The translations under genes and the position numbers were made by a program. From Patescibacteria group bacterium (GTDB lineage Bacteria > Patescibacteriota > Patescibacteriia > UBA2591 > UBA6264): 43,498 nucleotides of DNA. The notes beneath the pieces were generated by a model. That model was given only the letters and a program-made list of their open reading frames with translations, was not told where the DNA came from and searched no databases. Shown here one piece after another: positions 25,032 through 41,163 of this stretch. Positions within the stretch are counted from its first letter, which is position 1. Each line of letters starts with the position of its first letter. The stretch spans positions 1 through 43,498 of the forward strand of contig JAHIMV010000081.1 of assembly GCA_018896315.1 (NCBI GenBank), given 5' to 3'.

Positions 25032-25089
25032 ACCCTGTTAAATAATTTCGCTTTTAGCGAAATTGCCGCAAGGCGGCATTTAACAGGGT
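25032..25089 (+). repeat. family A Y-shaped 58-nt core, copy a (rpsJ-rplC spacer)
   Basis: accctgttaaat[aatttcgc-tttt-agcgaaatt][gccgc-aag-gcggc]atttaacagggt: a 12-bp outer stem enclosing two hairpins. Confidence 0.9.
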
Positions 25090-28295: not shown

Positions 28296-28353
28296 ACCCT
28301 GTTAAATAATTTGTAAAGCAAATTAAAAATCAAAAATTTTTGTTTAACAGGGT
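28296..28353 (+). repeat. family A core, copy b (rplB-rpsS spacer), divergent inner hairpins
   Basis: Same outer stem accctgttaaa..tttaacagggt. Both inner hairpins are replaced by different self-complementary sequences (aatttg-taaag-caaatt; aaaaat-caa-aaattttt). Confidence 0.85.
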
Positions 28354-28383
28354 GCTCGAAAATTAATAAATTAATTTTTTCGC
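28354..28383 (+). promoter_or_regulatory. leader module L1 (gctc + AT palindrome + ttcgc-ATG) before rpsS
   Basis: gctcgaaaattaataaattaattttttcgc then ATG. No SD-like purine tract. Confidence 0.8.
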
Positions 28384-28680: not shown

Positions 28681-28883
28681 TCCCTCACCCTTTGGCGATA
28701 ATACTTCGCATTAGTGCTTCGCATTTTTAAACAAGTGTATTTAAAATTAAAAATAAAAAATCAAAATGCAAAATTTAGGTATCAAAAATTTTTCTTGAAA
28801 ATTTTTGATGATTGTATTTTATTTAATTTTAACATTTTTAATTGTCATTTTGATATTTGATATTTACATTTTACATTTATATT
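28681..28883. repeat. AT-rich long-hairpin spacer (rpsS-rplV), E-like
   Basis: Central 11-bp hairpin atcaaaaattt/aaatttttgat (28781..28809) flanked by an A-rich left arm and a quasi-complementary T-rich right arm (..ttttaattgtcattttgatattt). Confidence 0.6.
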
Positions 28884-29438: not shown

Positions 29439-29448
29439 AGAGCTTTGT

Positions 29449-29481
29449 CTGAAATTTGGAGAACTAGCGAACAAATTTCAG
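29449..29481 (+). repeat. H1 hairpin module, copy after the rplV stop
   Basis: ctgaaatttg ..agcgaa.. caaatttcag (10-bp stem). Preceded by taa-agagctttgt. Confidence 0.7.
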
Positions 29482-29494
29482 TAACAAAACCTTT

Positions 29495-29622
29495 ACCCAG
29501 CACTTATTTTGCGAAGCAAAAACAAAATTTTATATATAACAAGATAAGATAGGTTTATTTCTCGCGAAAGAGCGTTAAAACACTCTTTCGCTAAGACTCA
29601 CTTGGCAGAATAAGTGCTGGGT
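29495..29622 (+). repeat. family B element, copy 2 (rplV-rpsC spacer), diverged
   Basis: Same termini (acccagcacttatt / aataagtgctgggt) and the same inner gcgaaagag hairpin, with several substitutions and indels. Confidence 0.85.
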
Positions 29623-29687
29623 GCTCAAATTTGTAACGAAATTTCCTTCGTTACTTCGTAACTCGTAAATTTAGACAAATTTAGCAT
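29623..29687 (+). promoter_or_regulatory. leader module L2 variant before rpsC
   Basis: gctcaaatttgtaacgaaatttccttcgttac...gacaaatttagcat then ATG. 5' caaatttg and 3' caaattt co-vary relative to the other copies. Confidence 0.7.
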
Positions 29688-30332
29688 ATGGGAAGAAAAG
29701 TAAATCCAAAAATTTTCCGTATTCCCTTAATCAGAGATTGGGAATCAAAGTGGTTTGCAAAAAAGCACGAATTTAAACGATTCTTAAAAGAGGATATACA
29801 GATTAGAGAGTTTTTATCAAAAAGACTAAAGAATTGTGGTATTTCTAATATTAGTATTGAAAGGTTGGCTAATATTATAAGAATCAGCATATCCACTGGT
29901 AAGCCTGGATTAATTATTGGTCGAGGAGGTCTTGATATTGAAAAATTAAAAAAAGAATTAAAAGTTTTTGTCAGCGATGGAATTGTTTTAGAAGTTAATG
30001 TTATTGAAGAGAAAAAACCAATGCTTTCCGCTGATGTGATTTTAGAAGGAGCAATTGCTGATTTAGAAAAAAGGTTTCCTTTCCGTCGAGTGATGAAAAA
30101 AGTTATTAGACAGGCTAAAACAAGCGAGGCCAAAGGAATGAAAATCATCCTTAGCGGACGTTTGGGGGGAGTTGAGATTTCTCGATCAGAAAAATTGATT
30201 TGGGGGAACTTACCGCTTCATACTTTGCGAGCAGACATTGATTATGCTCGTGGCACAGCCGCAACAACATATGGTTCAATCGGAGTTAAAATCTGGGTTT
30301 ATCGAGGAGAAAAATTTAGTAATTCTGTCTGA
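29688..30332 (+). CDS. rpsC: 30S ribosomal protein S3
   Basis: MGRKVNPKIFRI..W.SKWFA, KH domain GKPGLIIGRGG, GRLGG.EI.R.E. Confidence 0.95.
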   Translation: MGRKVNPKIFRIPLIRDWESKWFAKKHEFKRFLKEDIQIREFLSKRLKNCGISNISIERLANIIRISISTGKPGLIIGRGGLDIEKLKKELKVFVSDGIVLEVNVIEEKKPMLSADVILEGAIADLEKRFPFRRVMKKVIRQAKTSEAKGMKIILSGRLGGVEISRSEKLIWGNLPLHTLRADIDYARGTAATTYGSIGVKIWVYRGEKFSNSV

Positions 30333-30378
30333 TATTTTTAAGTCCAGAGGACGTAGAAAATTCAGCTACAGAATTGCT

Positions 30379-30508
30379 ACCCAGCACTTATTTTGCGAAA
30401 CAGAAACAAAATTTTATATATATAACAAGGTAAAATAAGTTTATTTTTCGCGAAAGAGCGTTAAAACACTCTTTCGCCAAGACATACCTAGCAAAATAAG
30501 TGCTGGGT
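30379..30508 (+). repeat. family B element, copy 3 (rpsC-rplP spacer)
   Basis: Reads identically to 7747..7876. Confidence 0.9.
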
Positions 30509-30539
30509 GCTCAAAAATTAATAAATTAATTTTTTTCGC
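30509..30539 (+). promoter_or_regulatory. leader module L1 before rplP
   Basis: gctcaaaaattaataaattaatttttttcgc then ATG. Confidence 0.8.
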
Positions 30540-30959
30540 ATGTTAATGCCCAAGAAACAAAAGTATAGAAAGAGCCACAAAGGAAGAAGGAGAACAAAAA
30601 GTCAAGCAACAAGGGGAACTACGGTTAGTTTTGGTGATTTTGGATTAAAAACATTAGAGCATCGTTGGATCACTGCTCGTCAAATTGAGACGGTGCGCCG
30701 AACACTTACCCGAGTATTTAAAAAAAGAGGAAAGATTTGGATTAGAATTTTTCCTAATAAACCAGTTACGGCTAAAAGTTCAGAGATTCCTATGGGCGGG
30801 GGTAAAGGAGCGGTTGACCACTATGTCGTTGCGGTAAAACCAGGAATGATTCTTTTTGAGGTCACCGGAATTGATAAAGAATCGGCCCAAAAAGCGTTTA
30901 AAGCAGCTTCATATAAATTGCCAGTGAAAACTAAGTTTGTTAGCAAAGATAATATTTAA
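30540..30959 (+). CDS. rplP: 50S ribosomal protein L16
   Basis: MLMPKKQKYRK.HKGR.., RWITARQIE..RR.LTR, MGGGKG. Confidence 0.95.
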   Translation: MLMPKKQKYRKSHKGRRRTKSQATRGTTVSFGDFGLKTLEHRWITARQIETVRRTLTRVFKKRGKIWIRIFPNKPVTAKSSEIPMGGGKGAVDHYVVAVKPGMILFEVTGIDKESAQKAFKAASYKLPVKTKFVSKDNI

Positions 30960-30962
30960 AAA

Positions 30963-31148
30963 ATGAAGACAGAGGAACTTAAACCAAAAACAAAAAAAGA
31001 ACTGGAAAGATTGTTAGAAGATTCTAGGGAAAAACTACGTAATCTACATTTTGATATTCAAATGAAGCAGTCAAAAAATGTAAGGGAAATAAGAAAAGCA
31101 AAGAAATTAATTGCTAAAATACTTACATTTATTAATCAAAAAAATTAA
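30963..31148 (+). CDS. rpmC: 50S ribosomal protein L29
   Basis: 61 aa, LKPKTKKELERLLEDSREKLRNLHF, conserved position between rplP and rpsQ. Confidence 0.85.
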   Translation: MKTEELKPKTKKELERLLEDSREKLRNLHFDIQMKQSKNVREIRKAKKLIAKILTFINQKN

Positions 31149-31149
31149 T

Positions 31150-31401
31150 ATGGCCAAAAAAAGATTTCAAGGAGTAGTGACTAGTGATAAGATGGATAAA
31201 ACCATTGTTGTTATGATAAATCGGACAAAGGTGCATCCTATCTATAAAAAGAGATATCAGGTTAGTAAAAAATATAAAGTTCATGATCAGAAAAATGAAG
31301 CTAAAATTGGTGATCAAGTTACTTTTGAGGAATGCAGACCTTTGTCAAAAGATAAAAAGTGGAGATTAATAACGATTTTGTCTGAAAAAGCGAGCTCGTA
31401 G
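31150..31401 (+). CDS. rpsQ: 30S ribosomal protein S17
   Basis: MAKKRFQGVVTSDKMDKTIVV......HPIYKKR...SKKYKVHD..N.A.IGD.V...E.RPLSK.K.W. ATG at 31150 (the track start 31111 overlaps rpmC). Confidence 0.92.
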   Translation: MAKKRFQGVVTSDKMDKTIVVMINRTKVHPIYKKRYQVSKKYKVHDQKNEAKIGDQVTFEECRPLSKDKKWRLITILSEKASS

Positions 31402-31430
31402 AGCGAAGGTTTTTTGGTAACAAAATCGTT

Positions 31431-31488
31431 ACCCTGTTAAATAATTTCGCTAAAAGCGAAATTGCCGCAGGGCGGCATTTAACAGGGT
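31431..31488 (+). repeat. family A core, copy c (rpsQ-rplN spacer)
   Basis: As copy a, but the loop of hairpin 1 is aaaa instead of tttt and hairpin 2 is gccgc-agg-gcggc. Confidence 0.9.
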
Positions 31489-31518
31489 GCTCAAAAATTA
31501 ATAAATTAATTTTTTCGC
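31489..31518 (+). promoter_or_regulatory. leader module L1 before rplN
   Basis: gctcaaaaattaataaattaattttttcgc then ATG. aaaaattaat/attaattttt is a 10-bp self-complement. Confidence 0.8.
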
Positions 31519-31890
31519 ATGATTCAACCGGAAACAAGACTAAAAGTTATTGATAACACTGGAGCTAAAGAAATACAGTGTATTCGCGTTTTAGGCGGTT
31601 ATAGGAAGAGATATGCTCGTATTGGTGATATTATTACAGCGACAATTAAAAAAGCTGTTCCTCACACTTCAGTAAAAAAAGGAGAGGTGATTCATGCGGT
31701 TATTGTTAGAACAAAAAAAGAAACTCGTCGGGCCAATGGTGTTTATATCAGATTTGATGATAATGCCGCGGTGATTGTTGATAGAAAGACTAAAGAACCA
31801 AAAGGAGGTAGAGTTTTTAGTGTTGTTGCTAGAGAATTAAGAAAAAAAGGTTTTACCAAGATCGTCTCTTTAGCCCCCGAAGTACTTTAG
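31519..31890 (+). CDS. rplN: 50S ribosomal protein L14
   Basis: [27 protein letters not shown]...RYA.IGD.I. Confidence 0.96.
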
Positions 31891-31949
31891 TGATTTTATC
31901 TGATAAAATCGAGGCCGCCGGGCGAAGATTTTTCAGCTACAAAATCGCT

Positions 31950-32007
31950 ACCCTGTTAAATAATTTCGCTTTTAGCGAAATTGCCGCAAAGCGGCATTTA
32001 ACAGGGT
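31950..32007 (+). repeat. family A core, copy d (rplN-rplX spacer)
   Basis: accctgttaaataatttcgcttttagcgaaattgccgcaaagcggcatttaacagggt. Confidence 0.9.
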
Positions 32008-32037
32008 GCTCAAAAATTAATAAATTAATTTTTTCGC
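32008..32037 (+). promoter_or_regulatory. leader module L1 before rplX
   Basis: Identical to the rplN copy. Confidence 0.8.
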
Positions 32038-32346
32038 ATGAAAATAAAAAAAGGTGACACAGTACAAATAATTAATGGTAAAGATAAAGGAAAAAAGGGG
32101 AAAGTGATCCGATCTTTACTTAAAGAAGGCAAGATAGTTGTTGAGGGTTTAAATGTGGTAACTAAGCATGTTCGGCCAAAAAAATCTGGAGAAAAGGGAC
32201 AAAGAATCAAGATGGCTACCCCTTTGTATGTTTCAAAGGTAATGTTGATTTGTCCTCATTGCAAAAAAAGAGTTAGAGTGGGATACAAAATTTTAACTGA
32301 TAATAGAAAAAAAAGAATTTGTCGAAAATGTAAAGATATAATATAA
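32038..32346 (+). CDS. rplX: 50S ribosomal protein L24 (C-terminal CxxC..CxxC)
   Basis: MKIKKGDTVQIINGKDKGKKGKV (KOW motif). C-terminus CPHCKKRVRVGYK...RICRKCKD. Confidence 0.92.
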   Translation: MKIKKGDTVQIINGKDKGKKGKVIRSLLKEGKIVVEGLNVVTKHVRPKKSGEKGQRIKMATPLYVSKVMLICPHCKKRVRVGYKILTDNRKKRICRKCKDII

Positions 32347-32356
32347 AGGGCTTTGT

Positions 32357-32392
32357 CTAAATTTTGGAGTCCGAAGGGCGAACAAAATTTGG
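32357..32392 (+). repeat. H1 hairpin module, copy after the rplX stop
   Basis: ctaaattttg ..ggcgaa.. caaaatttgg. Preceded by taa-agggctttgt. Confidence 0.7.
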
Positions 32393-32405
32393 TAACAAAA
32401 CCTTT

Positions 32406-32463
32406 ACCCTGTTAAATAATTTCGCTTTTAGCGAAATTGCCGCAGGGCGGCATTTAACAGGGT
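32406..32463 (+). repeat. family A core, copy e (rplX-rplE spacer)
   Basis: accctgttaaataatttcgcttttagcgaaattgccgcagggcggcatttaacagggt. Confidence 0.9.
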
Positions 32464-32520
32464 GCTCATAATTGTAACGAAATTTATTTCGTTACGAGTA
32501 ACTTATAAATTTCGATAATT
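32464..32520 (+). promoter_or_regulatory. leader module L2 before rplE
   Basis: gctCATAATTgtaacgaaatttatttcgttacgagtaacttataaatttcgatAATTATG. Confidence 0.75.
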
Positions 32521-33069
32521 ATGGCAGATTTAAAGCAAATATATTTAAAAAAAGTTGTTCCAGAATTAGTCAAAAAATTTGATTATCAGAACAAGATGGC
32601 TGTTCCTAAGATAGAAAAAATTGTTGTTAATTCTGGATTAAGTCGTGGAACTACAGAGAAAAATTCTAAATATGTTGACATGGTTAGTCAGACAATTGCT
32701 AAAATTACAGGACAACAGCCAGTTAAAAATTTAGCAAAAAAATCAATTGCTGGTTTTAAAATTAGAGAAGGAATGCCAGTTGGCGTAAGTACAACTCTGC
32801 GAGGCCCGAAAATGTATAATTTTCTAGATAAATTAATTAATATTGCTTTACCAAGAATAAGAGATTTTAGAGGACTAAAAAAACAGAGTATTGATCAACA
32901 GGGTAATTTATCAATCGGTTTTAAAGAGCAGGTAGTTTTTCCAGAGATTAATCAGGAAAATCTTGAATCAACCCATGGTTTACAAGTAGTGATTACAACA
33001 ACAACTCAAAGTAAAGAAAAGGCATTAGAATTATTTAAATTATTAGGATTTCCCTTTAGAAAAGAATAA
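32521..33069 (+). CDS. rplE: 50S ribosomal protein L5
   Basis: LKQIYLKKVVPEL.KKF.Y.N.M.VPKIEKIVVN.G.., LP.IRDFRGL. Confidence 0.95.
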   Translation: MADLKQIYLKKVVPELVKKFDYQNKMAVPKIEKIVVNSGLSRGTTEKNSKYVDMVSQTIAKITGQQPVKNLAKKSIAGFKIREGMPVGVSTTLRGPKMYNFLDKLINIALPRIRDFRGLKKQSIDQQGNLSIGFKEQVVFPEINQENLESTHGLQVVITTTTQSKEKALELFKLLGFPFRKE

Positions 33070-33078
33070 ATTTGACAT

Positions 33079-33264
33079 ATGGCAACTAAAGGACAAGTAG
33101 TTAAATCAAATAAAGAGCCTAAATATCGGACACGAAAAGTACGACGTTGTTGGCGTTGCGGAAGAAGACATGGCTATATGAGAGAATTTGATGTTTGTCG
33201 CATTTGCTTTAGAGAATTAGCAACTAAGGGGGCAATCCCAGGTATAAGAAAATCATCTTGGTAA
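33079..33264 (+). CDS. rpsN: 30S ribosomal protein S14, type Z (zinc form)
   Basis: 61 aa with [23 protein letters not shown]. Confidence 0.93.
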
Positions 33265-33402
33265 GATAAAAATTCAAATATCAAAAATTAAAAATCAAAA
33301 TGACATATCAAAATCTAAAATTAATAAATAATAAAAATTATCCCGAAGGGATACCTAAATTTTGCATTTTGCATTTTGCATTTTGCATTTAACGAAACGT
33401 TT
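33265..33402. repeat. AT-rich long-hairpin spacer (rpsN-rpsH), E-like
   Basis: Left arm atcaaaaattaaaaatcaaaatgac.., central tatccc-gaa-gggata hairpin (33339..33353), right arm four tandem ttttgca units. Confidence 0.6.
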
Positions 33403-33807
33403 ATGACTGATCCAATTGCCGACATGCTAACAAGAGTTCGTAATGCTTTGGCTATTAAAAAACCAGAGATAGTTTTGCCTTATTCCAAGGTTAAGTTTAA
33501 TATTGCTAAAGTATTAGAAAAAGAAAAATTGATTGAAAAAGTGGAAATAATTGATGCGGCGAAAAGTAAAACAGGATTTAAGCAGTTAAAAATTAAATTA
33601 AAGTACAATGAAGACAATCAACCAGTTATTGGTACTTTAAAAAGAATCAGCAGCCCAGGTCAACGTATTTATGTTAAAAAAGATAAAATTCCCAAAGTTT
33701 TAAATGGTTTGGGAATGAATATTTTATCTACCTCTAAAGGCTTAATGACCGGACAAGAAGCTAGAGAGAAGGGTTTAGGAGGAGAATTAATTTGTGAAAT
33801 ATGGTAA
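33403..33807 (+). CDS. rpsH: 30S ribosomal protein S8
   Basis: MTDPIADMLTRVRNAL... Internal ATG at 33403 chosen; the track start 33376 lies in the ttttgca tandem repeat. Confidence 0.93.
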   Translation: MTDPIADMLTRVRNALAIKKPEIVLPYSKVKFNIAKVLEKEKLIEKVEIIDAAKSKTGFKQLKIKLKYNEDNQPVIGTLKRISSPGQRIYVKKDKIPKVLNGLGMNILSTSKGLMTGQEAREKGLGGELICEIW

Positions 33808-34074
33808 CGCGATACCAATATACGAATGCATGCGAATGATACGAATAAAGCACACGAATAGTAAAACATAATGCTAATCTACGAATGTATGCGAATGCTA
33901 CGAATTACGAATAAAGCGCGCAAATTATTATTCGCGTCATTCGCGTGAATTAGCGTATTAGTGTCGCTACTTTTAACACAACATGAATGCGCCCACACGA
34001 ATATTAGTATAATCAGTATCCATTCGTATATTAGCATCGATTAAATTAATTCGTATATTAGCATCGATATTATT
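33808..34074. repeat. family D copy 4 (rpsH-rplF spacer), expanded, 267 nt
   Basis: cgcgataccaatatacgaatgcatgcgaatgatacgaat ... attcgtatattagcatcgat duplicated in tandem at the 3' end. Many acgaat/attcg units. Confidence 0.8.
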
Positions 34075-34623
34075 ATGTCAAGAATTGGTAAAAAAATTAT
34101 TTCTGTTCCAGAAAATGTTGAAATAAAAGTACAAGATCAACAGATTTTAGTCAAAGGGCCAAAAGGCGAATTAAAGCAATTTTTGCCAGATTTTGTTAAA
34201 ATTGAAATAAAAGATAATCAATTGAAAGTTTTAGTTAAAAATCCTGAAGAAAAAGAACAAAAAGCTTGTTGGGGGACGTTTGCTAGTCTGATTTCTAATA
34301 TGATTCAAGGGGTAACCCAAGGATTTAAAAAAAAACTAGAATTAGTAGGGGTGGGTTATCGGGCAGAAAAACAAGGAGATAAGATTATTCTTAATGTTGG
34401 TTTTTCCCATCCAGTAGAATATTTAGTTCCTAAAAATATTGAAGCAGACGTTGAACAAAGAACAATTATTATTCGGGGATTTGATAAACAGTTAGTAGGA
34501 GAAACAGCAGCACAGATTAGGAAGTTTAGAAAACCAGAACCATATAAGGGAAAGGGAATTAAATATTCCGATGAAGTAATTCGTCGAAAAGCTGGCAAAA
34601 AGGTTGCTGGAGCAGGAACATAG
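34075..34623 (+). CDS. rplF: 50S ribosomal protein L6
   Basis: MSRIGKKIISVPENVEI......I.VKGPKGEL, GVGYRA, PEPYKGKGI.Y. Confidence 0.95.
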   Translation: MSRIGKKIISVPENVEIKVQDQQILVKGPKGELKQFLPDFVKIEIKDNQLKVLVKNPEEKEQKACWGTFASLISNMIQGVTQGFKKKLELVGVGYRAEKQGDKIILNVGFSHPVEYLVPKNIEADVEQRTIIIRGFDKQLVGETAAQIRKFRKPEPYKGKGIKYSDEVIRRKAGKKVAGAGT

Positions 34624-34911
34624 AAAAATCAAAAATCAAAAATCAAAAATCAAAATTATTTTATTAAAAAATCAAAAAAGAACAAGTTCCTCTCAAGCGA
34701 GAGTAAAATGGAAAACGTAAAAAGGAATTGCTGATTGCCGATTGTTGATTGTTTGGAAAGATAGACAAAGGTTTCAATTAGCAATTAACAATTAAGACTA
34801 GTTTTTAATTTTTACATTTTAATTTGTCATTTTACATTTTGATGGTTCGACTTTGCTCACCATCAATCCTGAGCGTAGTCGAAGGATTGATATTTAAATT
34901 TTACATTTTCT
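34624..34911 (+). repeat. family E element, copy 1 (rplF-rplR spacer), carrying a nested 50-nt hairpin element
   Basis: (aaaatc)n left arm, centre gaacaagttcctctcaagcgagag..aattgctgattgccgattg..caattagcaattaacaatt, right arm tttacattttaatttgtcattttacattttga. Confidence 0.85.
34841..34890 (+). repeat. 50-nt hairpin element nested in family E copy 1
   Basis: gatggttcgactttgctcaccatcaatcctgagcgtagtcgaaggattga. Absent from the otherwise collinear copy 2 (..ccattttga|tatttaaatt..). ttga occurs on both sides. Confidence 0.9.
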
Positions 34912-35277
34912 ATGGCTGAAGTAAAAAAACAATTGCAGAGAGAAAAAAGACATCGCCGAGTTCGCGCAAAAATTAATGGGACAAGTGAATGTCCAAGACT
35001 CTGTGTTTTTAGAAGCAATAAATATATTTATGTGCAGTTGATTGATGATCAAAAAGGGATAACTTTATTATCTGTTACAGATAATAAACCAAAAACAAAA
35101 TCTAAAACTAAAGAATCTTCAAATATAAATAGCGCCTTAGAGGTTGGAAAAATTTTAGCAAAAAAAGCTATTGAAAAGAAAATTAAAAAAATAGTTTTTG
35201 ATCGTGGAGGATATAAGTATCATGGTCGAGTTAAGGCAATAGCGGAGGGAGCAAGGCAAGGTGGACTTAAGTTCTAA
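34912..35277 (+). CDS. rplR: 50S ribosomal protein L18
   Basis: [49 protein letters not shown]. Confidence 0.95.
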
Positions 35278-35499
35278 ATCAAAAATCAAAAATCAAAAAT
35301 CAAAATTATTTCATTAGAAAACTAAATAAGAACAAGTTCCTCGCAAGCGAGAGTAAAATGGAAAACATAAAAAAGAATTGCTGATTATTCGGAAAGATAT
35401 ACAAAAATGTCAATTAGCAATTAACAATTAAGATTAGTTTTTAATTTTTACATTTTAATTTGTCATTTTCCATTTTGATATTTAAATTTTACATTTTCT
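35278..35499 (+). repeat. family E element, copy 2 (rplR-rpsE spacer)
   Basis: Collinear with copy 1 apart from a short internal deletion and absence of the nested hairpin. Ends ..tatttaaattttacattttctATG exactly as copy 1 does. Confidence 0.85.
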
Positions 35500-35988
35500 A
35501 TGACAAAAGAAAAAAGAATAAAACGTAGGGAGTTGCCAGGAGTCAAAATTGAGCCAGAGTTTATTCAGCAATTAGTTGATTTAGCTAGAGTAACTAGAGT
35601 TGTTAAGGGAGGAAAACGTTTAAGTTTTCGTGCCTGTATGGTTATTGGAAATAAAAAAGGAGAAATTGGAATGGGATTAGCTAAAGGGACAGATGTCGCC
35701 GGAGCTATTCATAAAGCAGTTCGTAAGGCAAATAAAAATTTAATCAAAGTAACAATTGTTAATGATACTATCCCTCATTGGGTTAGAGTTAAGTATGGAG
35801 CGGCTCAAGTTTTATTACGACCAGCCAGAAAAGGCCATGGAATTGTCGCTGGAGGAGCTGTTAGAACAGTTTTATCTTTATCAGGTATTAGAAATGTTAC
35901 CGCTAAAATTCTGGGGTCAAAGAGTAAAATGAACAATGTTAGAGCAACGATTAAAGCTTTACAGTCATTAAAAATTCCTAAGGTTTAA
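35500..35988 (+). CDS. rpsE: 30S ribosomal protein S5
   Basis: V.L.RVTRVVKGGKR.SFRA..V.GN..G..G.G.AK, RPA..G.GI.AGG.VR. Confidence 0.95.
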   Translation: MTKEKRIKRRELPGVKIEPEFIQQLVDLARVTRVVKGGKRLSFRACMVIGNKKGEIGMGLAKGTDVAGAIHKAVRKANKNLIKVTIVNDTIPHWVRVKYGAAQVLLRPARKGHGIVAGGAVRTVLSLSGIRNVTAKILGSKSKMNNVRATIKALQSLKIPKV

Positions 35989-35992
35989 AATT

Positions 35993-36472
35993 ATGACAGT
36001 TAAATTATCTAATTTAAAACCAGGGTCTAAGGCAAGACGCCGCTCAAGAAGAGTTGGCAGGGGAAATAATGCTTCTGATCCAGGCACTTATTCTGGCCGG
36101 GGCATGAAGGGACAAAGATCAAGATCTGGCGGAAAAAAGGGTCTTAAAATTAGAGGCCTAAGAAGAAACTTGAGAAGCATGCCAAAATTAAAGGGATTTA
36201 ATAAAAGAAAGTCTTTAAGCATTAAACCAATAAGTTTGAAAGATTTAGAAAACAAATTCAAAGAAAATGAAATTGTTGATCTTGCTAAATTGGTTAAGAG
36301 TGGTTTAATTAAAAAGAAAGACCGTCGAGTTAAAATTTTAGCTCAAGGGAAGATAACAAAAAAATTAACTATTAAAGCTCATCAATTTTCAAAAGCGGTG
36401 GAAAAGGCTGTTAAAAAAGCAGGGGGAAAGATAGTGATTTTATCTGATAAAATAGAGCTTAAAAAGCGATAA
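35993..36472 (+). CDS. rplO: 50S ribosomal protein L15 (last 12 codons lie in a repeat cassette)
   Basis: LSNLKPG..ARR...RVGRG...G.....GRG.KGQ..RSG. Follows rpsE directly, with no rpmD. Confidence 0.93.
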   Translation: MTVKLSNLKPGSKARRRSRRVGRGNNASDPGTYSGRGMKGQRSRSGGKKGLKIRGLRRNLRSMPKLKGFNKRKSLSIKPISLKDLENKFKENEIVDLAKLVKSGLIKKKDRRVKILAQGKITKKLTIKAHQFSKAVEKAVKKAGGKIVILSDKIELKKR

Positions 36473-36493
36473 TTTTTCAGCTACAAAATCGCT

Positions 36494-36551
36494 ACCCTGT
36501 TAAATAATTTCGCTTTTAGCGAAATTGCCACAGGGTGGCATTTAACAGGGT
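36494..36551 (+). repeat. family A core, copy f (rplO-secY spacer)
   Basis: Hairpin 2 is gccac-agg-gtggc, a double compensatory change relative to gccgc..gcggc. Confidence 0.9.
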
Positions 36552-36583
36552 GCTCGAAAATTAATTAACATTAACTTTCTCGC
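36552..36583 (+). promoter_or_regulatory. leader module L1 variant before secY
   Basis: gctcgaaaattaattaacattaactttctcgc then ATG. Still an imperfect AT palindrome. Confidence 0.7.
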
Positions 36584-37861
36584 ATGTGGGGAAAAATAAG
36601 ACAACTTTGGCAAATTAAAGATTTAAGAAACAGTCTTCTTTTTGTTATGGCCATGTTGATTATTTTTCGTATTGCCGCACATATTCCAGTCCCGGGAGTA
36701 AACTTAGATAATTTAAAAGATTTTTTCTCGCGCAATGAGATGTTGGGAATGTTAAATATCCTTTCTGGAGGAGCTATGTCTAATTTTTCCTTAGTGGCAA
36801 TGGGTATTGCTCCTTATATCACTGCTTCAATTATTATGCAACTCTTAACTATGATTGTTCCCCGCTTAGAAGAACTTAGCAAAGAAGGAGCAAGTGGTTA
36901 TCAAAAGATTAATCAATATTCTCGTTTATTAACAATTCCTTTGGCTATTCTACAGTCTTATGGAATGATTATGATTTTTAGCCAATCTAGCCAGCCAATT
37001 CTGGGTTCTTTATCAACTTTTGAATTAGCCAATGTTTTAATGGTTATGACTGCTGGGACAGTTTTTTTAATGTGGTTAGGAGAATTAATTACTGAAAAGA
37101 AAATTGGCAATGGTATTTCTTTGCTTATTTTTGCTGGAATTGTTGAACGAGTTCCTATTTCTATTCAGCAAACGATTGCTACTTTTTCTGCAGATCAAAT
37201 TATTAATTTTTTAGTTTTAGTAGGTTTAGCTTTAGTGACAATTGCTGGAGTGGTAATTATTACAGAAGGTCAGCGCAATATTCCAGTTACTTATGCCCGA
37301 CGCATTCGTGGTCATCGTATGTATGGCGGAACAGATACTTATTTACCGATGAAGGTTAATCAGGCGGGCATGATTCCTATTATTTTTGCCATTTCTATTG
37401 TTCTTTTTCCAGGTTTAATAGGGCAACTTTTAGCCAGATCAGGTTCAACTTTTATAGCTAAGTTTGGTCAAATTTTAATGGGAATTACTCAAAATCAACT
37501 TATTTATGGTTTGTTATATTTTACTTTAGTGGTCGCTTTTACTTATTTTTATACTAGTATTATTTTTCATCCAAAACAAATAGCTGACAATTTACAAAAG
37601 CAAGGAGGTTTTGTTCCTGGTTTAAGACCGGGCGAGCCAACAGCTAATTACTTGTCCACAGTTAGTGTTCGTATTATGCTTGCCGGAGCTTTGTCTTTAG
37701 GGCTCATTGCTGTTTTGCCCATTATTACCCAAAATGTTTTTAGACTTTCTACTTTTGTTGTTGGCGGAGCAGCTATTTTAATTGTCGTGAGCGTGGTTTT
37801 AGAGTCTGTTAAACAAATTCAAGCCCAGATTGCAATGCATGAATATGAGGGTTTAGGTTAG
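36584..37861 (+). CDS. secY: preprotein translocase subunit SecY
   Basis: 10-TM protein, LGI.PYITASII.QLL, GEL.TE.GIGNGISL.IFAGI. Confidence 0.96.
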   Translation: MWGKIRQLWQIKDLRNSLLFVMAMLIIFRIAAHIPVPGVNLDNLKDFFSRNEMLGMLNILSGGAMSNFSLVAMGIAPYITASIIMQLLTMIVPRLEELSKEGASGYQKINQYSRLLTIPLAILQSYGMIMIFSQSSQPILGSLSTFELANVLMVMTAGTVFLMWLGELITEKKIGNGISLLIFAGIVERVPISIQQTIATFSADQIINFLVLVGLALVTIAGVVIITEGQRNIPVTYARRIRGHRMYGGTDTYLPMKVNQAGMIPIIFAISIVLFPGLIGQLLARSGSTFIAKFGQILMGITQNQLIYGLLYFTLVVAFTYFYTSIIFHPKQIADNLQKQGGFVPGLRPGEPTANYLSTVSVRIMLAGALSLGLIAVLPIITQNVFRLSTFVVGGAAILIVVSVVLESVKQIQAQIAMHEYEGLG

Positions 37862-38127
37862 AAAAATCAAAAATTAAATATCAAAAATCAAAATTATTTT
37901 ATTAGAAAATTAAATAGGAACAAGTTCCTCGCAAGCGAGAGCAAAATGGAAAACATAAAAAGGAATTGCTGATTGCTGATTGCCGATTGTTGATTGTTTG
38001 GAAAGATAGACAAAGGTTTCAATTAGCAATTAATAGCTAAGAATAGTTTTTAATTTTTACATTTTAATTTGTCATTTTCCATTTTGATATTTACATTTTG
38101 CATTTGACCGAGTGTTAACGAGGAAAT
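37862..38127 (+). repeat. family E element, copy 3 (secY-adk spacer)
   Basis: Collinear with copies 1 and 2 through ..gtcattttccattttgatattt, then diverges into an SD-containing adk leader. Confidence 0.85.
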
Positions 38128-38799
38128 ATGATTAAAAAGAATTTTAATTTAATTATTCTGGGACCAGCTGGTTCAGGCAAGGGAACACAAGCTCATTTGT
38201 TAATCAAAGAGTTTAGTATGAAAACAATTGAGATGGGAGAATTGGTCAGAGGAGCAGCCAAGGAAAAAACAAAACAGGCTAAATTAATTGCTTGGATGCA
38301 TGACGTGGGCATGCATTTTTCAGATGATTTTATTTTTAATCTTTTTGAAAAAAACGTTAAAAAGCTTAATAAAAAATATAAGCTTTTAGTTGACGGATAT
38401 CCAAGAACAGCTGGACAAGCTTGGGATTTGCAAAGAATTTTAAAAAAATATTATAAAAACAGGCCAAGCTTAGCCATTTGGATCAATGTTAGCGATAAAG
38501 AATCTTTAAAAAGATTGCTGAGTCGAGCCCTTTGTTCTAAATGTGGCAAGATTTTTCCTAATCGAAAAATTAAAAAATGCCCAGATTGCGGCGGTTTAGT
38601 TAAAGTCAGGGGTTATGATAAAGACAAAAAAGCAATTCAAAAAAGATTAGATTGGTTTCATGATCATGTAGTTCCAGCTATTGAGTTTTATAAACAGCGT
38701 AAAATGTTAGTTCAGGTTAATGGAGAGCAGTCAGTAGAAAAAGTTTTTAAAGAAACTTTAAGAAAAATAAATCGATACCAATATACGAATGCATACTAA
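38128..38799 (+). CDS. adk: adenylate kinase (Zn LID); last 9 codons lie in a family D repeat
   Basis: ILGPAGSGKGTQA, VDGYPRT, LID CSKCGK..CPDCGG. GAGGA Shine-Dalgarno sequence upstream. Confidence 0.9.
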   Translation: MIKKNFNLIILGPAGSGKGTQAHLLIKEFSMKTIEMGELVRGAAKEKTKQAKLIAWMHDVGMHFSDDFIFNLFEKNVKKLNKKYKLLVDGYPRTAGQAWDLQRILKKYYKNRPSLAIWINVSDKESLKRLLSRALCSKCGKIFPNRKIKKCPDCGGLVKVRGYDKDKKAIQKRLDWFHDHVVPAIEFYKQRKMLVQVNGEQSVEKVFKETLRKINRYQYTNAY

Positions 38800-38869
38800 T
38801 TATACTAATCATTATTTGAATCATTTTTATTTGTATTATTAGTATGAATTTGTATATTAGCATTGCATT
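38773..38869. repeat. family D copy 5 (adk 3' end to the map start)
   Basis: cgataccaatatacgaatgcatactaa is read as adk codons RYQYTNAY-stop. Right arm attagtatgaatttgtatattagcattgc. Confidence 0.8.
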
Positions 38870-39631
38870 ATGATTCCCATTAAAACAGAAAAAGAAATTG
38901 AAATCATGCGTCAGGCAGGTCAGATTTTGTCTGATGTTATAAAAAAAATCGTCCCGTATGTTTGTCGGGGCGTTTCTACTTTAGAATTAGACCAATTGGC
39001 AGAGAAATTAATTTATCAAGCTGGAGCCAAGCCAGGATTTAAAGGATATAGTGACAAAAAGAAGATTTATCCGGCTACACTTTGCACTTCAATTAATGAA
39101 CATGTAGTTCATACTATTCCCAAGAGAAATAAATTTTTAAAAGATGGTGATATTATTAGCCTGGATTGCGGGGTAAAATATAAGGGATATTATTCAGATA
39201 TGGCCATAACTGTAGCCGTAGGAAAAATTCCTTATAAAACCAAAGAGTTAATTAAAACAACTAAAGAAGCATTAGAGGTGGCCATTAAAAACATAAAAGA
39301 AGGGGTTTATTTAGGCGATATTTCTCATTTGATTCAATCTTTTGTTGAAAAAAAAGGGTTTTCAGTGGTGCGCCAGCTTTCTGGACATGGTATTGGCAAA
39401 GAACTTCATGAAAAACCAACTATTTTAAATTATGGCAAAAAAGGAACAGGTCCTATTTTAAAATCAGGCATGGTTTTAGCCTTTGAACCCATGGTTAATA
39501 TGGGGGACTGGCCAGTTAAAACACTTAAAGATGGCTGGACTATTGTTACAGAAGATGGAAGTTTGTCGGCTCATTTTGAACATACTATTTTAGTGACAAA
39601 AAAAGGGGCTGAAGTTTTAACAAAAATGTAA
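38870..39631 (+). CDS. map: type I methionine aminopeptidase
   Basis: IKTEKEIEIMRQAG, VHTIP, DGDIISLDCG..Y.GY.SDMA.T, GHGIG...HE.P, FEPM, HFEHT. Confidence 0.95.
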   Translation: MIPIKTEKEIEIMRQAGQILSDVIKKIVPYVCRGVSTLELDQLAEKLIYQAGAKPGFKGYSDKKKIYPATLCTSINEHVVHTIPKRNKFLKDGDIISLDCGVKYKGYYSDMAITVAVGKIPYKTKELIKTTKEALEVAIKNIKEGVYLGDISHLIQSFVEKKGFSVVRQLSGHGIGKELHEKPTILNYGKKGTGPILKSGMVLAFEPMVNMGDWPVKTLKDGWTIVTEDGSLSAHFEHTILVTKKGAEVLTKM

Positions 39632-39639
39632 CTTTTTAA

Positions 39640-40083
39640 ATGAAATTTTTAGGTATTGATCCAGGAAAAAGATATATTGGATTAGCCATGGCTGATGACC
39701 AAGTAAAAATAGCTATGCCTTATCAGGTTTTAGATATGAATGACCATGAATCTTTGTTTAAAGAATTAGAAAAAATTGTAGCTAAGGAAAAAATACAAAA
39801 AATTATTGTTGGTTATCCAATTGGTATGTCGGGAAAACCAACAGAGCAAACCAAGATAACAGAACAATTTATAAGACAGTTAAAAAAACAGGTCAACCCT
39901 GTTAAATCCCGCAAAGCGGGAATTTCGCCAAAGGCGAAATTATTTAACAGGGTAAATATTCCAATAATTAGATTTGACGAAAGATTAAGCTCAAAAATGG
40001 CTGACAAGCTGTCATCTGGTCAGAAGCAGAATCACGCTGTAGCCGCTAATATTATTCTACAAGATTATTTAGACAAAAATTAA
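39640..40083 (+). CDS. ruvX: YqgF/RuvX putative pre-16S rRNA nuclease / Holliday junction resolvase-like
   Basis: LGIDPGKRYIGLA, IVVGYPIGMSG, FDERLSS. Contains an in-frame 60-nt copy of the Y-shaped repeat at 39895..39954. Confidence 0.85.
   Translation: MKFLGIDPGKRYIGLAMADDQVKIAMPYQVLDMNDHESLFKELEKIVAKEKIQKIIVGYPIGMSGKPTEQTKITEQFIRQLKKQVNPVKSRKAGISPKAKLFNRVNIPIIRFDERLSSKMADKLSSGQKQNHAVAANIILQDYLDKN
39896..39953 (-). repeat. family A core, copy g, inverted orientation, inside the ruvX coding sequence
   Basis: accctgttaaat[cccgc-aaa-gcggg][aatttcgcc-aaa-ggcgaaatt]atttaacagggt. Hairpin order is reversed relative to copies a-f. Translated in frame as NPVKSRKAGISPKAKLFNRV. Confidence 0.9.
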
Positions 40084-40086
40084 ATT

Positions 40087-41163
40087 ATGATTTTTATTAT
40101 TTTTTTTCTCAGTCTTGCTTTGGCAATTATTTTGACTCCTTTGGTTCGTAGTTTGGCAATAAAGTTAAATGTGGTTGATGTTTTTGGAAAATCAGAAAGA
40201 AAGATTCACAAAAAAACCACTCCTCTTTTGGGCGGTTTAGTGATATTTCTTTCTTTTTTTATTATTCTTTTTATTGCTAAACAAACTGCTTGGTGGCCTG
40301 CAGGCAAGGTTTTAGACAAACATTTAATCGGTTTGTTTTTAGCAGGTAGTTTGTTGATGATAGGAGGTTTTTTAGATGATAAATATAATTTAAAACCTGT
40401 TCAACAACTTATTTGGCCTATTTTAGCTTGTCTTGTTGTTATTATTAGTGGAATAGGCATTGAGTATATTAATAATCCTTTTGGCACTGGCTATCTGCAC
40501 CTTGATAATATAAAAATAGAGTTGATTCGATTAAAAGGAATGCCATATTATTTTACTCCTTGGGCTGATTTAGTTACTTTTTTCTGGTTAATGATTTTAA
40601 TGTATTCAACTAAATTACTTGATGGCCTGGACGGTTTGGTATCAGGAATAACAGTTATTGGCGCTTTGGTTATTGCCGGACTTTGTTTTTTTACTGAATT
40701 TTATCAGCCTGATGTTGGATTAATGAGTTTGATTTTGGCTGGAGCAGGATTAGGGTTTTTATTTTTTAATTTCCACCCAGCTAAGATTTTTTTAGGAGAA
40801 GGAGGTAGTCTTTTTGCCGGATTTATGTTAGGATCTTTGGCCATAATTTCAGGAAGCAAAGTGGCAACCACATTTTTAATTTTAGGGCTGGCTATTATTG
40901 ATTTAATTAGCGTCGTAATTCAAAGAACAGTAATTGAACGTCATTCTCCTTTTAAAGGTGATAAAAAACATTTTCATTTTCGTTTATTAGAAATTGGTTT
41001 TTCTCACCGCTTGGCAGTCATTTTTTACTGGTCTATTGCCTTGATATTTGGCTTAACTACTTTATTTTTACAAACAAAAGGTAAAATTATTTCTTTGATT
41101 ATTTTAATTGTTTTTGGCATAAGCTTGATTAATTTATATTCTTTTAGAAGAAAAAAGTGTTAA
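40087..41163 (+). CDS. MraY/WecA-family polyprenyl-phosphate N-acetylhexosamine-1-phosphate transferase (WecA/TagO-like)
   Basis: Polytopic membrane protein with GGFLDDKYNLKP, LLDGLDGL, and a C-terminal DKKHFHFRLLEIGFSHR that resembles WecA/TagO more than MraY. Confidence 0.75.
   Translation: MIFIIFFLSLALAIILTPLVRSLAIKLNVVDVFGKSERKIHKKTTPLLGGLVIFLSFFIILFIAKQTAWWPAGKVLDKHLIGLFLAGSLLMIGGFLDDKYNLKPVQQLIWPILACLVVIISGIGIEYINNPFGTGYLHLDNIKIELIRLKGMPYYFTPWADLVTFFWLMILMYSTKLLDGLDGLVSGITVIGALVIAGLCFFTEFYQPDVGLMSLILAGAGLGFLFFNFHPAKIFLGEGGSLFAGFMLGSLAIISGSKVATTFLILGLAIIDLISVVIQRTVIERHSPFKGDKKHFHFRLLEIGFSHRLAVIFYWSIALIFGLTTLFLQTKGKIISLIILIVFGISLINLYSFRRKKC

What the first reader, a model, noticed from the sequence alone, without database searches (positions are those of the whole stretch)
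39895..39954. Y-shaped repeat inserted in frame inside ruvX
A complete family A core in inverted orientation, plus one flanking base each side (60 nt), lies within the RuvX/YqgF coding sequence. It is read as NPVKSRKAGISPKAKLFNRV, between the conserved IVVGYPIGMSG and FDERLSS segments, with no stop codon and no frame shift. This parallels the Rickettsia palindromic elements that insert in frame into protein genes. I am not aware of it being described for this lineage or repeat.
Basis: partly seen in the sequence, partly recalled or inferred. Interest (0 to 1): 0.66.

Follow-up and report, generated by a model that had tools for sequence, protein, structure and literature searches.

The report
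Mobile hairpin repeat inside ruvX gene
A 56-base Y-shaped palindromic repeat has landed in frame inside the ruvX gene of a Patescibacteria genome, adding a floppy 20-residue loop, and the same element with the same 11-base arms occurs in several bacterial phyla, where it has repeatedly inserted in frame into housekeeping genes.

Summary
Window 39895-39954 is codons 86-105 of an intact 147-aa RuvX ORF and reads NPVKSRKAGISPKAKLFNRV. Its 56-nt core (39897-39952) folds as a three-way junction and has six other copies in the window, all intergenic. The closest RuvX orthologues (127 aa, up to 90% identical) lack exactly these 20 residues. A syntenic relative, about 84-90% identical in DNA across its aligned segments, has an empty site. 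AlphaFold places the insert in a low-confidence loop of a confident RuvX fold. So the Rickettsia-palindromic-element parallel holds.

The repeat is not lineage-specific. The arms CCCTGTTAAAT...ATTTAACAGGG enclose two hypervariable, compensating hairpins in more than 119 loci. These span Patescibacteria, Desulfobacterota, WOR-3, Omnitrophota, Bacteroidota and others. About a quarter of copies keep 7-12-bp flanking direct repeats, no transposase lies nearby, and about 10% sit in frame in housekeeping genes with the same xPVK...FNRV signature. It behaves as a very small MITE. I found no Rfam family or paper describing it.

Open points:
- The ruvX copy has no target duplication.
- The 24 nt upstream of it are abnormally diverged.
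- The mobilising enzyme is unknown.
- A second ruvX in the genome cannot be excluded.

The parts
39640..40083 (+). ruvX/yqgF ORF, 147 aa, carrying the insert
   Evidence: Pfam PF03652 RuvX, E = 2.7e-30, over residues 1-145. Foldseek top hits are RuvX/YqgF structures 7ess, 1vhx and 1nmn. NCBI names it RuvX, MBU4369774.1. dN/dS = 0.19 against L001 outside the insert.
39895..39954 (+). 60-nt in-frame insert, codons 86-105, NPVKSRKAGISPKAKLFNRV
   Evidence: It is absent from all 21 aligned orthologues and from the syntenic DNA of L001.
39897..39907 (+). left arm CCCTGTTAAAT (terminal inverted repeat)
   Evidence: Invariant in all window copies. It is shared by more than 119 loci of other genomes.
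39908..39920 (+). hairpin 1, CCCGC-AAA-GCGGG
   Evidence: Folds. In an 11-sequence alignment, 4 of its 5 pairs show changes on both sides.
39921..39941 (+). hairpin 2, AATTTCGCC-AAA-GGCGAAATT
   Evidence: Folds. In the same alignment, 5 of its 9 pairs show changes on both sides.
39942..39952 (+). right arm ATTTAACAGGG
39871..39894 (+). abnormally diverged 24-nt patch directly upstream of the insert (codons 78-85, IRQLKKQV versus VEGLKEFL in the closest orthologue)
   Evidence: Six of the 13 aa differences from P0002 fall in these 8 residues (hypergeometric p = 2e-5). The overlapping 27-nt windows over the patch (gene nt 226-252 and 235-261) carry 12 nt differences each, against 0-5 in windows elsewhere; the gene totals 37.
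25033..25088 (+). intergenic copy, opposite interior orientation (after rpsJ/S10)
28297..28352 (+). intergenic copy with intact arms and a degenerate AT-rich interior
31432..31487 (+). intergenic copy
31951..32006 (+). intergenic copy
32407..32462 (+). intergenic copy
36495..36550 (+). intergenic copy between rplO (L15) and secY, embedded in an 82-nt unit that is absent from L001

Best explanation
The 60 nt are a copy of a very small, non-autonomous palindromic mobile element. It is MITE-like: 11-bp invariant terminal inverted repeats, extended by about 4 semi-conserved bases, enclose two short hairpins.

Shown:
- The element entered ruvX in this lineage only, in one of the element's stop-free reading frames.
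- It lies at the junction between an alpha-helix and the beta-strand that carries the conserved D113-E114 motif.

Inferred:
- Because the copy is in frame and lies in a surface loop, the gene stays open and is translated into a RuvX with an extra, probably disordered 20-residue loop.
- The element is moved in trans by an unidentified transposase that recognises the arms and makes staggered cuts of about 8 bp.
- Most genic insertions are removed by selection. The survivors are those in an open frame and in tolerant loops. This is why the same peptide signature xPVK...FNRV turns up in unrelated housekeeping proteins.
- In ruvX the original junctions were remodelled afterwards, or the copy arrived on a short recombination patch. 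That would account for the missing target duplication and the diverged 24 nt upstream.
For: Lineage-specific insertion:
- Orthologues up to 90% identical lack exactly these 20 residues.
- L001 is syntenic (L18-S5-L15-SecY-Adk-Map-RuvX-GT4), about 84-90% identical in DNA across the aligned segments, and has an empty site.
- L001 also lacks all the intergenic repeats of this region.

Repeat identity: 7 copies in the window against 0 expected.

Mobile-element character, from the sample of other genomes:
- More than 119 loci carry the same arms.
- Flanks not imposed by the search are conserved, T-T-Y-A on the left and T-R-A-A on the right.
- Direct repeats of at least 7 nt flank 32 of 121 copies, against 6-7 in displaced controls. 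For repeats of at least 8 nt the counts are 16 against 1-3.
- No recurrent neighbouring gene and no transposase were found.

Structure is kept while sequence drifts:
- There are 63 interior clusters at about 75% identity among 129 distinct interiors.
- The median folding z-score of the interiors is -2.3.
- 147 of 215 hairpin loops are triloops.
- 9 of 14 interior pairs show changes on both sides.

Recurrent in-frame insertion: 13 of 129 copies lie inside long ORFs. Ten of these were scanned and all match Pfam families. In seven the match, or its two stretches, continues past the insert:
- class-I aaRS
- GatA
- RsmA
- GT4
- DsbD_2
- Aminotran_5
- MotA/ExbB
Of the other three, the two DNA pol III delta' matches stop at the insert, and the SAM-methyltransferase match lies wholly downstream of it and is below Pfam's cut-off. 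Most read xPVK...FNRV.

Protein tolerance:
- The insert has pLDDT <50 in a loop, while the core blocks average about 84-93.
- The fold matches RuvX structures.
- Catalytic-motif columns D7, D113 and E114 are invariant.
- dN/dS = 0.19.

Open frames: 3 of the 6 frames of this copy are stop-free.
Against: - The ruvX copy itself has no flanking direct repeat. Its net gain is 60 nt (core + 4), not the roughly 70-72 nt expected from element plus an 8-bp duplication.
- The 24 nt upstream differ from the closest orthologue far more than the rest of the gene does, and several codons differ at all three positions. The event was therefore not a simple transposition.
- No parent insertion sequence or transposase with these ends was found.
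- The insertion is known from a single contig of a single assembly. Translation and activity of the protein are untested.
- The other contigs of the genome could not be examined for a second ruvX.
Confidence: 0.8

Rival explanations
1. Recombination patch. The element inserted into ruvX of a different, more divergent lineage. A short segment (about 24 nt of flank plus the 60-nt insert) was then copied into this lineage's ruvX by homologous recombination, rather than by transposition at this site.
For: - Six of 13 aa differences, and windows with 12 nt differences against 0-5 elsewhere, are packed into the 24 nt upstream of the insert. Some codons differ at all three positions. The downstream flank is nearly identical to L001.
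- The patch IRQLKKQV resembles distant orthologues (P0018 IKKLKKQI, P0019 IQELKQQV) more than close ones.
- There is no target duplication at this copy.
Against: - No ruvX with this insert exists anywhere else among 5.8 billion proteins or in the JGI metagenome scan.
- The distant orthologues that resemble the patch have no insert.
- Local compensatory adaptation of the helix end after the insertion could also produce clustered changes.
Confidence: 0.25
2. The gene is inactivated. The ORF is still open by chance, but the insertion destroyed RuvX function, and the genome either tolerates the loss or has another copy.
For: - One in three to one in two insertions of this element would be stop-free by chance.
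- The insertion appears recent. It is unique to one contig and all 25 pairs are perfect.
- A related contig (L126) carries a ruvX disrupted by other palindromes.
Against: - There are no frameshifts or stops anywhere in the ORF.
- All invariant family residues are kept.
- The insert maps to a loop away from the conserved core.
- Insertions of the same kind persist in essential genes of other genomes. One in gatA is shared by two genomes only 81% identical in that protein.
- RuvX/YqgF is generally essential in bacteria. This last point is from my own knowledge and was not tested here.
Confidence: 0.12
3. The structure is there for a function. The Y-shaped element is a cis-acting RNA or DNA signal (processing site, terminator, protein-binding site) that the cell uses, and its presence in ruvX regulates ruvX or the downstream glycosyltransferase gene.
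For: - The fold is very stable on both strands.
- The structure is conserved with compensating changes across phyla.
- All six intergenic copies in the window follow genes of one operon in one orientation.
Against: - There is no orientation bias relative to flanking genes across the sample: 17 sense against 27 antisense in co-directional contexts, and 6 against 7 inside genes.
- No Rfam family matches.
- Conservation lies in the helix arms and not in loops or junctions, and triloops dominate. This is typical of DNA palindromes rather than functional RNAs.
- There is no terminator-like tail on the sense strand in ruvX.
- Close relatives do without any of these elements.
Confidence: 0.08
4. Assembly artefact. 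The repeat was stitched into ruvX by the assembler.
For: There is only one assembly and one contig. The exact left junction was not found in JGI metagenomes.
Against: - The insert keeps the reading frame exactly, and genuine ruvX sequence lies on both sides.
- Its sequence differs from every other copy in the window by compensating changes, so it is not a copy-paste of a neighbouring repeat.
- The same kind of in-frame insertion is seen in many independent assemblies.
Confidence: 0.04

Closest known systems
Rickettsia palindromic elements (RPEs; Ogata et al. 2000, as summarised in PMC10969869)
   Same: Both are palindromic repeats that are dispersed in the genome and found in frame inside unrelated housekeeping genes. 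Both add a conserved peptide at positions compatible with the protein fold. No transposase is linked to either.
   Different: - RPEs are about 100-150 bp and restricted to Rickettsia. This element is 43-68 nt between the outer ends of its arms.
- This element has a three-way (Y) fold with invariant 11-bp arms and hypervariable hairpins.
- It occurs in Patescibacteria, Desulfobacterota, WOR-3, Omnitrophota, Bacteroidota and others.
- About 10% of sampled copies are genic, against nearly half for some RPE families.
- Sequence relatedness to RPEs was not tested.
Bacterial MITEs (for example Correia/NEMIS, ERIC, RUP, Nezha, Coxiella QMITE1)
   Same: Small size, non-coding, terminal inverted repeats, many copies, flanking direct repeats in a fraction of copies, occasional in-frame intragenic copies, and no transposase of its own.
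   Different: - It is much shorter than most MITEs.
- The interior is two independent hairpins that vary freely while the arms stay identical across phyla.
- The interior is found in both orientations between identical flanks (flip/flop).
- No parent insertion sequence is identified.
REP / REPIN elements mobilised by RAYT transposases
   Same: Short, hairpin-forming, highly repeated, and non-autonomous.
   Different: - There is no GTAG-type 5' motif.
- The two hairpins are not inverted copies of each other.
- Copies occur inside genes.
- Direct repeats flank part of the copies.
- No RAYT gene was seen near any copy, though RAYT genes were not searched for with a profile.
Very small dispersed repeats of cyanobacteria (SDRs, Elhai et al. 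2008; cited from my own memory, not checked here)
   Same: Tiny palindromic mobile repeats that nest in other repeats and sometimes in genes.
   Different: Different sequence, size, fold and host range.
T-shaped inverted terminal repeats of parvoviruses (AAV ITR); a structural analogy only
   Same: An outer palindrome encloses two small internal palindromes, and flip and flop arrangements of the interior exist.
   Different: The parvoviral repeats are replication origins at the ends of a linear viral genome and are recognised by a Rep nuclease. Nothing here suggests replication primers or a Rep gene.

Membership tests
RuvX/YqgF (host gene) | Match to the Pfam RuvX profile above its gathering score | tested here: met
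   PF03652, 105.9 bits (cut-off 29.2), residues 1-145.
RuvX/YqgF (host gene) | RNase-H-like RuvX fold | tested here: met
   AlphaFold2 pTM 0.76. The Foldseek top hits are 7ess, 1vhx, 1nmn and 7w89, with TM-scores (normalised to the query) of 0.63-0.70 for the chains 7ess_A/B, 1vhx_A/B, 1nmn_B and 7w89.
RuvX/YqgF (host gene) | Conserved acidic residues (N-terminal Asp, and Asp-Glu after strand 5) | tested here: met
   D7, D113 and E114 are invariant columns in 22 sequences, including the window protein.
MITE | Small size (tens to a few hundred bp) and no coding capacity of its own | tested here: met
   The core is 56 nt here and 43-68 nt in the sample.
MITE | Terminal inverted repeats | tested here: met
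   The 11-bp arms are perfect. Four further semi-conserved positions, TTYA on the left and TRAA on the right, were not imposed by the search.
MITE | Target-site duplication | tested here: inconclusive
   At family level, direct repeats of at least 7 nt flank 32 of 121 copies against 6-7 in controls. The ruvX copy has none, and its net gain is 60 nt.
MITE | Multiple dispersed copies, with sites that are filled in one genome and empty in a relative | tested here: met
   There are 7 copies in the window. Empty sites in L001 were found at ruvX and at rplO-secY.
MITE | A parent insertion sequence with the same ends | tested here: inconclusive
   No transposase was found in the window. No recurrent neighbour was found in 119 loci. 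Solitary arms led nowhere. Whole genomes could not be searched.
Rickettsia palindromic elements | Sequence homology to an RPE family, with a host in Rickettsia | not tested
   No RPE consensus sequence was on hand. The host here is Patescibacteria, and the size (56 against about 100-150 bp, PMC10969869) does not fit.
Rickettsia palindromic elements | In-frame insertion into unrelated protein genes, adding a conserved peptide | tested here: met
   RuvX here, plus ORFs in other genomes with the signature xPVK...FNRV. In seven of the ten scanned, the Pfam match continues past the insert.
REP/REPIN-RAYT | A conserved 5' tetranucleotide (GTAG) plus an imperfect palindrome, in extragenic positions only | tested here: not met
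   There is no GTAG. Copies occur inside genes.
Integron attC site | Outer R'' (RYYYAAC) on the left and R' (GTTRRRY) on the right, in a cassette and integrase context | tested here: not met
   The arms contain GTTAAAT and ATTTAAC but in the reverse order. The copies lie in a ribosomal-protein operon and inside genes, with no cassettes.
Any Rfam RNA family | A covariance-model match | tested here: not met
   Only tRNAs pass the gathering threshold in the window. The best sub-threshold hit over three copies has E = 0.21, far below its cut-off.

The most novel reading that the evidence does not exclude
The ruvX insert may be one visible case of an undescribed superfamily of Y-shaped mini-transposons that spans phyla.
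- The invariant 11-bp arms would be the recognition site of a still unidentified, widely distributed transposase or recombinase.
- The two hairpins would be kept paired by a templated, intra-element process (the flip/flop arrangements and the many compensating changes point that way).
- The element would act as a general donor of short loop insertions (xPVK...FNRV) to housekeeping proteins of Patescibacteria, Omnitrophota, Desulfobacterota and others.
Probability: 0.4. Interest if true: 0.75.

Novelty: new variant of a known kind. Interest (0 to 1): 0.55.

Why it matters
In-frame insertion of selfish palindromes into proteins has been regarded mainly as a Rickettsia peculiarity, with scattered cases elsewhere. 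Here the same tiny element does it repeatedly in several phyla, including the genome-reduced Patescibacteria, where every gene counts.

If this holds, three things follow:
- It gives a simple sequence signature (the arms, or the peptide xPVK...FNRV) for finding such events at scale.
- It gives a natural experiment on which protein loops tolerate 15-20 extra residues.
- It gives a handle for identifying an unknown transposase, by asking which gene co-occurs with the arms across genomes.

There is also a practical use. Such inserts inflate and distort protein alignments and gene calls in metagenome-assembled genomes.

Tried and rejected
1. Known RNA family. Rfam at the gathering threshold on the whole window, and at E up to 10 on three copies, gave nothing relevant.

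2. Literature. I searched for the arm sequences, for MITE plus Patescibacteria, for Parcubacteria plus palindromic repeat, and for MITE plus Desulfobacterales/Omnitrophica. Nothing describes this element.

3. Integron attC or XerD-arm resemblance. TGTTAAAT matches the outer part of the E. coli dif XerD arm as I remember it, and GTTAAAT/ATTTAAC fit the attC core consensus. The order and polarity are wrong for attC, and there is no supporting context. I dropped both as unsupported.

4. An IS200/IS605-like model, with insertion 3' of TTTA, no duplication, and inserted DNA equal to core + 4. It fitted the 60-nt gain and the asymmetric flanks (TTTA...TGAA against TTCA...TAAA). It lost ground once flanking direct repeats of 7-12 nt were found in about a quarter of copies.

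5. Strand-specific RNA function. There is no orientation bias relative to neighbouring genes.

6. Linked transposase. All-against-all clustering of 1,459 ORFs from 119 loci gave only housekeeping families. There was nothing in the window either.

7. A donor flank for the diverged 24-nt patch. No similar flank lies next to any other sampled copy.

8. A protein-level census with a 40-aa probe made of two element peptides. The word index returned no candidate, although P0031 contains one of them. That search was wasted.

9. Independent observation of the ruvX junction in JGI metagenomes. No match.

10. Phage carriage. Only one hit in 2.9 million viral contigs, next to a terminase gene.

11. The mod-3 argument. 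Eleven of 13 genic copies have core length of 2 mod 3. About 59% is already expected, because each arm has a stop codon in one frame, so this is only weak evidence (my calculation).

Full report
**1. What is in the sequence**

The ORF at 39640-40083 on the + strand encodes 147 residues. It matches the Pfam RuvX profile over its whole length, with E = 2.7e-30. Codon 86 begins at 39895. The 60 bases 39895-39954 read NPVKSRKAGISPKAKLFNRV without a stop or a frameshift.

The 60 bases are AA, a 56-nt core and TA. The core has four parts:
- left arm CCCTGTTAAAT
- a 5-bp hairpin with a 3-nt loop
- a 9-bp hairpin with a 3-nt loop
- right arm ATTTAACAGGG

The core folds as a three-way junction. As RNA it gives -33.2 kcal/mol with z = -7.7. 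As DNA, either strand gives about -24 kcal/mol with z about -9.

The relaxed pattern CCTGTTAAA-N15-45-TTTAACAGG occurs seven times in the window and never in 100 shuffles. The other six copies are all intergenic, in the S10/spc ribosomal-protein operon. All six have the two hairpins in the opposite order.

**2. It is an insertion specific to this lineage**

A search of 5.8 billion proteins found the 147-aa protein only once, on this very contig. Eleven of the next 13 hits (P0002-P0014) are 127-128 aa. In the alignment of 22 sequences, every orthologue has a clean gap across the 20 residues. Identity to the window protein outside the gap reaches 90%.

The closest orthologue lies on JGI contigs with the same gene order: L18, S5, L15, SecY, Adk, Map, RuvX, glycosyltransferase 4. 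The DNA alignment shows 60 extra bases in the window. That relative is about 84-90% identical in DNA across the aligned segments. It carries none of the repeats, neither in ruvX nor in the intergenic spacers. A B. subtilis YrrK structure sequence (1vhx) aligns to residues 2-81 and 103-145 and skips the insert.

**3. Effect on the protein**

AlphaFold2 used the 22-sequence alignment and gave pTM 0.76. Most 10-residue blocks of the core have mean pLDDT of 84-93. Residues 89-104 fall below 50. They form an unstructured connection between helix 69-85 and strand 109-113, the strand that ends in the invariant D113-E114. Foldseek returns RuvX/YqgF structures first: 7ess, 1vhx, 1nmn and 7w89.

Outside the insert, dN/dS against the closest orthologue is 0.19. 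NCBI's pipeline calls the gene intact. That the protein still works is an inference. Nothing here tests it.

**4.

A scan of one genome per species (GTDB) used CCCTGTTAAAT-N20-48-ATTTAACAGGG. By record title the loci divide roughly as follows:
- about 50 are Patescibacteria of many classes
- about 30 are Desulfobacterota, including a 4.1-Mb contig
- about 16 are WOR-3/Stahlbacteria
- about 8 are Omnitrophota
- about 6 are Bacteroidota
- single loci come from Armatimonadota, Acidobacteriota, Cloacimonadota and others

Three features that the pattern did not impose show that these are related elements and not chance hairpins.
- First, 90 of 128 distinct sequences fold as the same Y. Most of the rest contain two triloop hairpins that the RNA energy model under-rates.
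- Second, four positions outside each arm are conserved, T-T-Y-A on the left and T-R-A-A on the right. There is a fixed asymmetry at the second position: TTTA...TGAA in one orientation equals TTCA...TAAA in the other.
- Third, the interiors are very diverse, with 63 clusters at about 75% identity among 129. Yet they fold far better than shuffles, with median z of -2.3. In an 11-sequence alignment of one length class, 9 of 14 interior pairs show changes on both sides. That alignment was chosen by fold, so only the compensating changes count as evidence.

Conservation sits in the helix arms. Loops are mostly 3 nt (147 of 215). There is no orientation bias relative to neighbouring genes. These traits fit a DNA-level element better than a functional RNA. 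No Rfam family matches.

**5. It behaves as a mobile, non-autonomous element**

Filled and empty sites exist between close relatives. Direct repeats of at least 7 nt lie within 20 nt on both sides of 32 of 121 copies. Mock elements displaced within the same loci give 6-7 of 121. For repeats of at least 8 nt the counts are 16 against 1-3. Clear examples are:
- ATCTGCGT|TTA...TGA|ATCTGCGT
- ACGCAGAT|TAA...TAA|ACGCAGAT
- GCAAATCA|TTTA...CAG|GCAAATCA

This is what a target-site duplication of about 8 bp looks like after some decay.

No gene family recurs near the copies except housekeeping genes. The window holds no transposase. One copy lies on a phage contig beside a terminase gene. The enzyme that moves the element is unknown.

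Copies with identical flanks but inverted interiors exist. The window and L012 are one such pair, and L102 and L110 are another. The interior can therefore flip between the arms.

In several lineages, including the window, the Y sits inside a longer repeated unit.

**6. In-frame insertion into genes is a recurrent outcome**

Thirteen of the 129 sampled copies lie inside long ORFs in frame. Ten were checked against Pfam, and all match known families.

In seven, the match, or its two matched stretches, continues past the insert:
- a class-I aminoacyl-tRNA synthetase
- GatA
- RsmA/KsgA
- a GT4 glycosyltransferase
- DsbD_2
- a class-V aminotransferase
- MotA/ExbB

In the other three it does not. 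The two DNA polymerase III delta' matches stop at the insert. The SAM-methyltransferase match lies downstream of the insert and is below Pfam's cut-off.

Most use the same frame as ruvX and read xPVK...(L/Q)FNRV. The alternative open frame reads TLLN...LTG. The third frame has TAA in each arm. With coding densities near 90%, finding only about 10% of copies in genes implies strong removal of genic insertions or avoidance of genes.

The GatA case shows persistence. L009 has the full element, reading HPVKCRFAAISRTAKLFNRV. The orthologue on L124 is 81% identical in protein. At the same codons it has only the two arms fused, CCCTGTTAAATTTGACAGGG, reading HPVKFDRV. The hairpins were therefore lost in frame while the arm-encoded residues stayed.

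**7. What does not fit a simple transposition in ruvX**

The ruvX copy has no flanking direct repeat. It adds 60 nt, which is core + 4, rather than about 70-72.

Six of the 13 amino-acid differences from the closest orthologue lie in the eight residues just before the insert (p = 2e-5). The two overlapping 27-nt windows that cover the 24 nt upstream carry 12 nucleotide differences each, against 0-5 elsewhere in the gene. Several codons are changed at all three positions. The downstream flank is almost unchanged.

Two readings remain. Either the junction was remodelled after insertion, for instance to restore the frame and adapt the helix end. Or the insert arrived with a piece of a divergent ruvX by recombination. 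The patch IRQLKKQV resembles distant orthologues more than close ones. However, no donor with the insert exists in the databases searched, and no other copy has a similar flank. I leave this open.

**8. Comparison with what is known**

In its way of working, the finding is the same as the Rickettsia palindromic elements and the occasional intragenic ERIC, BOX, QMITE1 and Anabaena MITE copies reviewed in PMC10969869. It is not a member of the RPE families by host or size. Sequence relatedness was not tested.

It meets most of the MITE definition: small, inverted-repeat ends, many copies, filled and empty sites, and duplications in part of the copies. No parent element has been found.

It differs from described MITEs in four ways:
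- its very small size
- the three-way fold
- arms that are identical across phyla while the hairpins vary freely and compensate
- the flip/flop interior

I found no description of it in Rfam or in the searchable literature. That is not proof that none exists.

**9. Verdict**

The single event in ruvX is a modest curiosity of a known kind. The element behind it looks like an undescribed, phylum-spanning family, and that raises the interest to moderate.

Noticed in passing
window 24965-38870 (intergenic spacers of the S10/spc operon): Almost every spacer holds one or more repeat units from several families. Examples are the 137-nt D1 unit, the AAAATCAAAAATC family at 34621, 35271 and 37859, and the ACGAATATTAGTATAAT family at 5353, 8438, 24480, 33808, 38800 and 42836. 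The relative L001, about 84-90% identical, has spacers of only 1-25 nt there, so the repeat invasion is recent in a small genome.
   Followed up: partly
window 7721-7883, 29467-29629, 30353-30515; also 21771-22030: A second and a third palindromic family share the outermost bases ACCC...GGGT(GCTC) and the same outer flanks as the Y element. Their arms are different (ACCCAGCACTTATTTTGC..., ACCCCAATTTTGC...). They may be mobilised by related enzymes.
   Followed up: no
window 36430-36472 (3' end of rplO, ORF 35993-36472): The last 43 nt of the L15 gene, including its stop codon, lie inside repeat family D12. L15 is 159 aa here against 150 aa in L001. A repeat unit therefore seems to have replaced the gene's end and extended the protein.
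   Followed up: partly
L009 6849-6904 versus L124 (gatA): The full Y element sits in frame in GatA of one Nealsonbacteria genome. At the same codons of an orthologue 81% identical, only the two arms remain, fused as a 20-nt palindrome that reads HPVKFDRV.
   Followed up: yes
L125 1501-1941 (ruvX homologue P0017): A different perfect 13-bp-stem hairpin, GAGGTGCGACCTC-CAGAA-GAGGTCGCACCTC, lies in frame at another position of ruvX and reads GGATSRRGRTS. The ORF's C-terminal extension runs into a copy of the AACAATAATCAATAATCAATGACCAAA repeat, which also occurs in the window at 753-790 and 27221-27258.
   Followed up: partly
L126 799-1194 (ruvX homologue P0022): GC-rich palindromes (CCTGCCTACCGG...CAGGCAGG) interrupt ruvX and shift the frame. 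The Map gene on the same contig is split in two. This is either a decaying locus or a poor assembly.
   Followed up: no
L015, L019, L023, L030, L053, L058, L066, L068, L084, L089, L113, L120 (WOR-3/Stahlbacteria): Elements of 61-63 nt in at least two interior types share the same 11-bp arms, but their interiors do not form two hairpins. In most, the flanks repeat (ACCACAGATTCA ... GAACCACAGAGA). This may be a different cargo between the same ends.
   Followed up: no
window and L012; L102 and L110: Copies with identical outer flanks have the two interior hairpins in opposite order (flip/flop). This suggests inversion between the arms or hairpin-templated copying.
   Followed up: partly
window 8535-16115: A 2,526-aa ORF encodes an anaerobic ribonucleotide reductase NrdD interrupted by inteins with LAGLIDADG homing-endonuclease domains. 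Its radical-SAM activase follows at 16258-17022.
   Followed up: partly
window 39887-39903, minus strand: The left arm pairs with the upstream AACAGG and forms a small hairpin followed by a run of T on the antisense strand. This is the only terminator-like site in 39500-40200.
   Followed up: no
window 22031-23122: A 363-aa ORF has only a partial adenylate-kinase match (residues 135-274). A canonical adk lies at 38128-38799. This may be a second, expanded kinase-like gene.
   Followed up: no
L123 889-934 (IMG/VR contig): This is the only viral-contig copy. It sits just downstream of a terminase large-subunit gene, has canonical TTTA/TGAA flanks, and is flanked by a 9-bp direct repeat CTACAGCCT.
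   Followed up: partly
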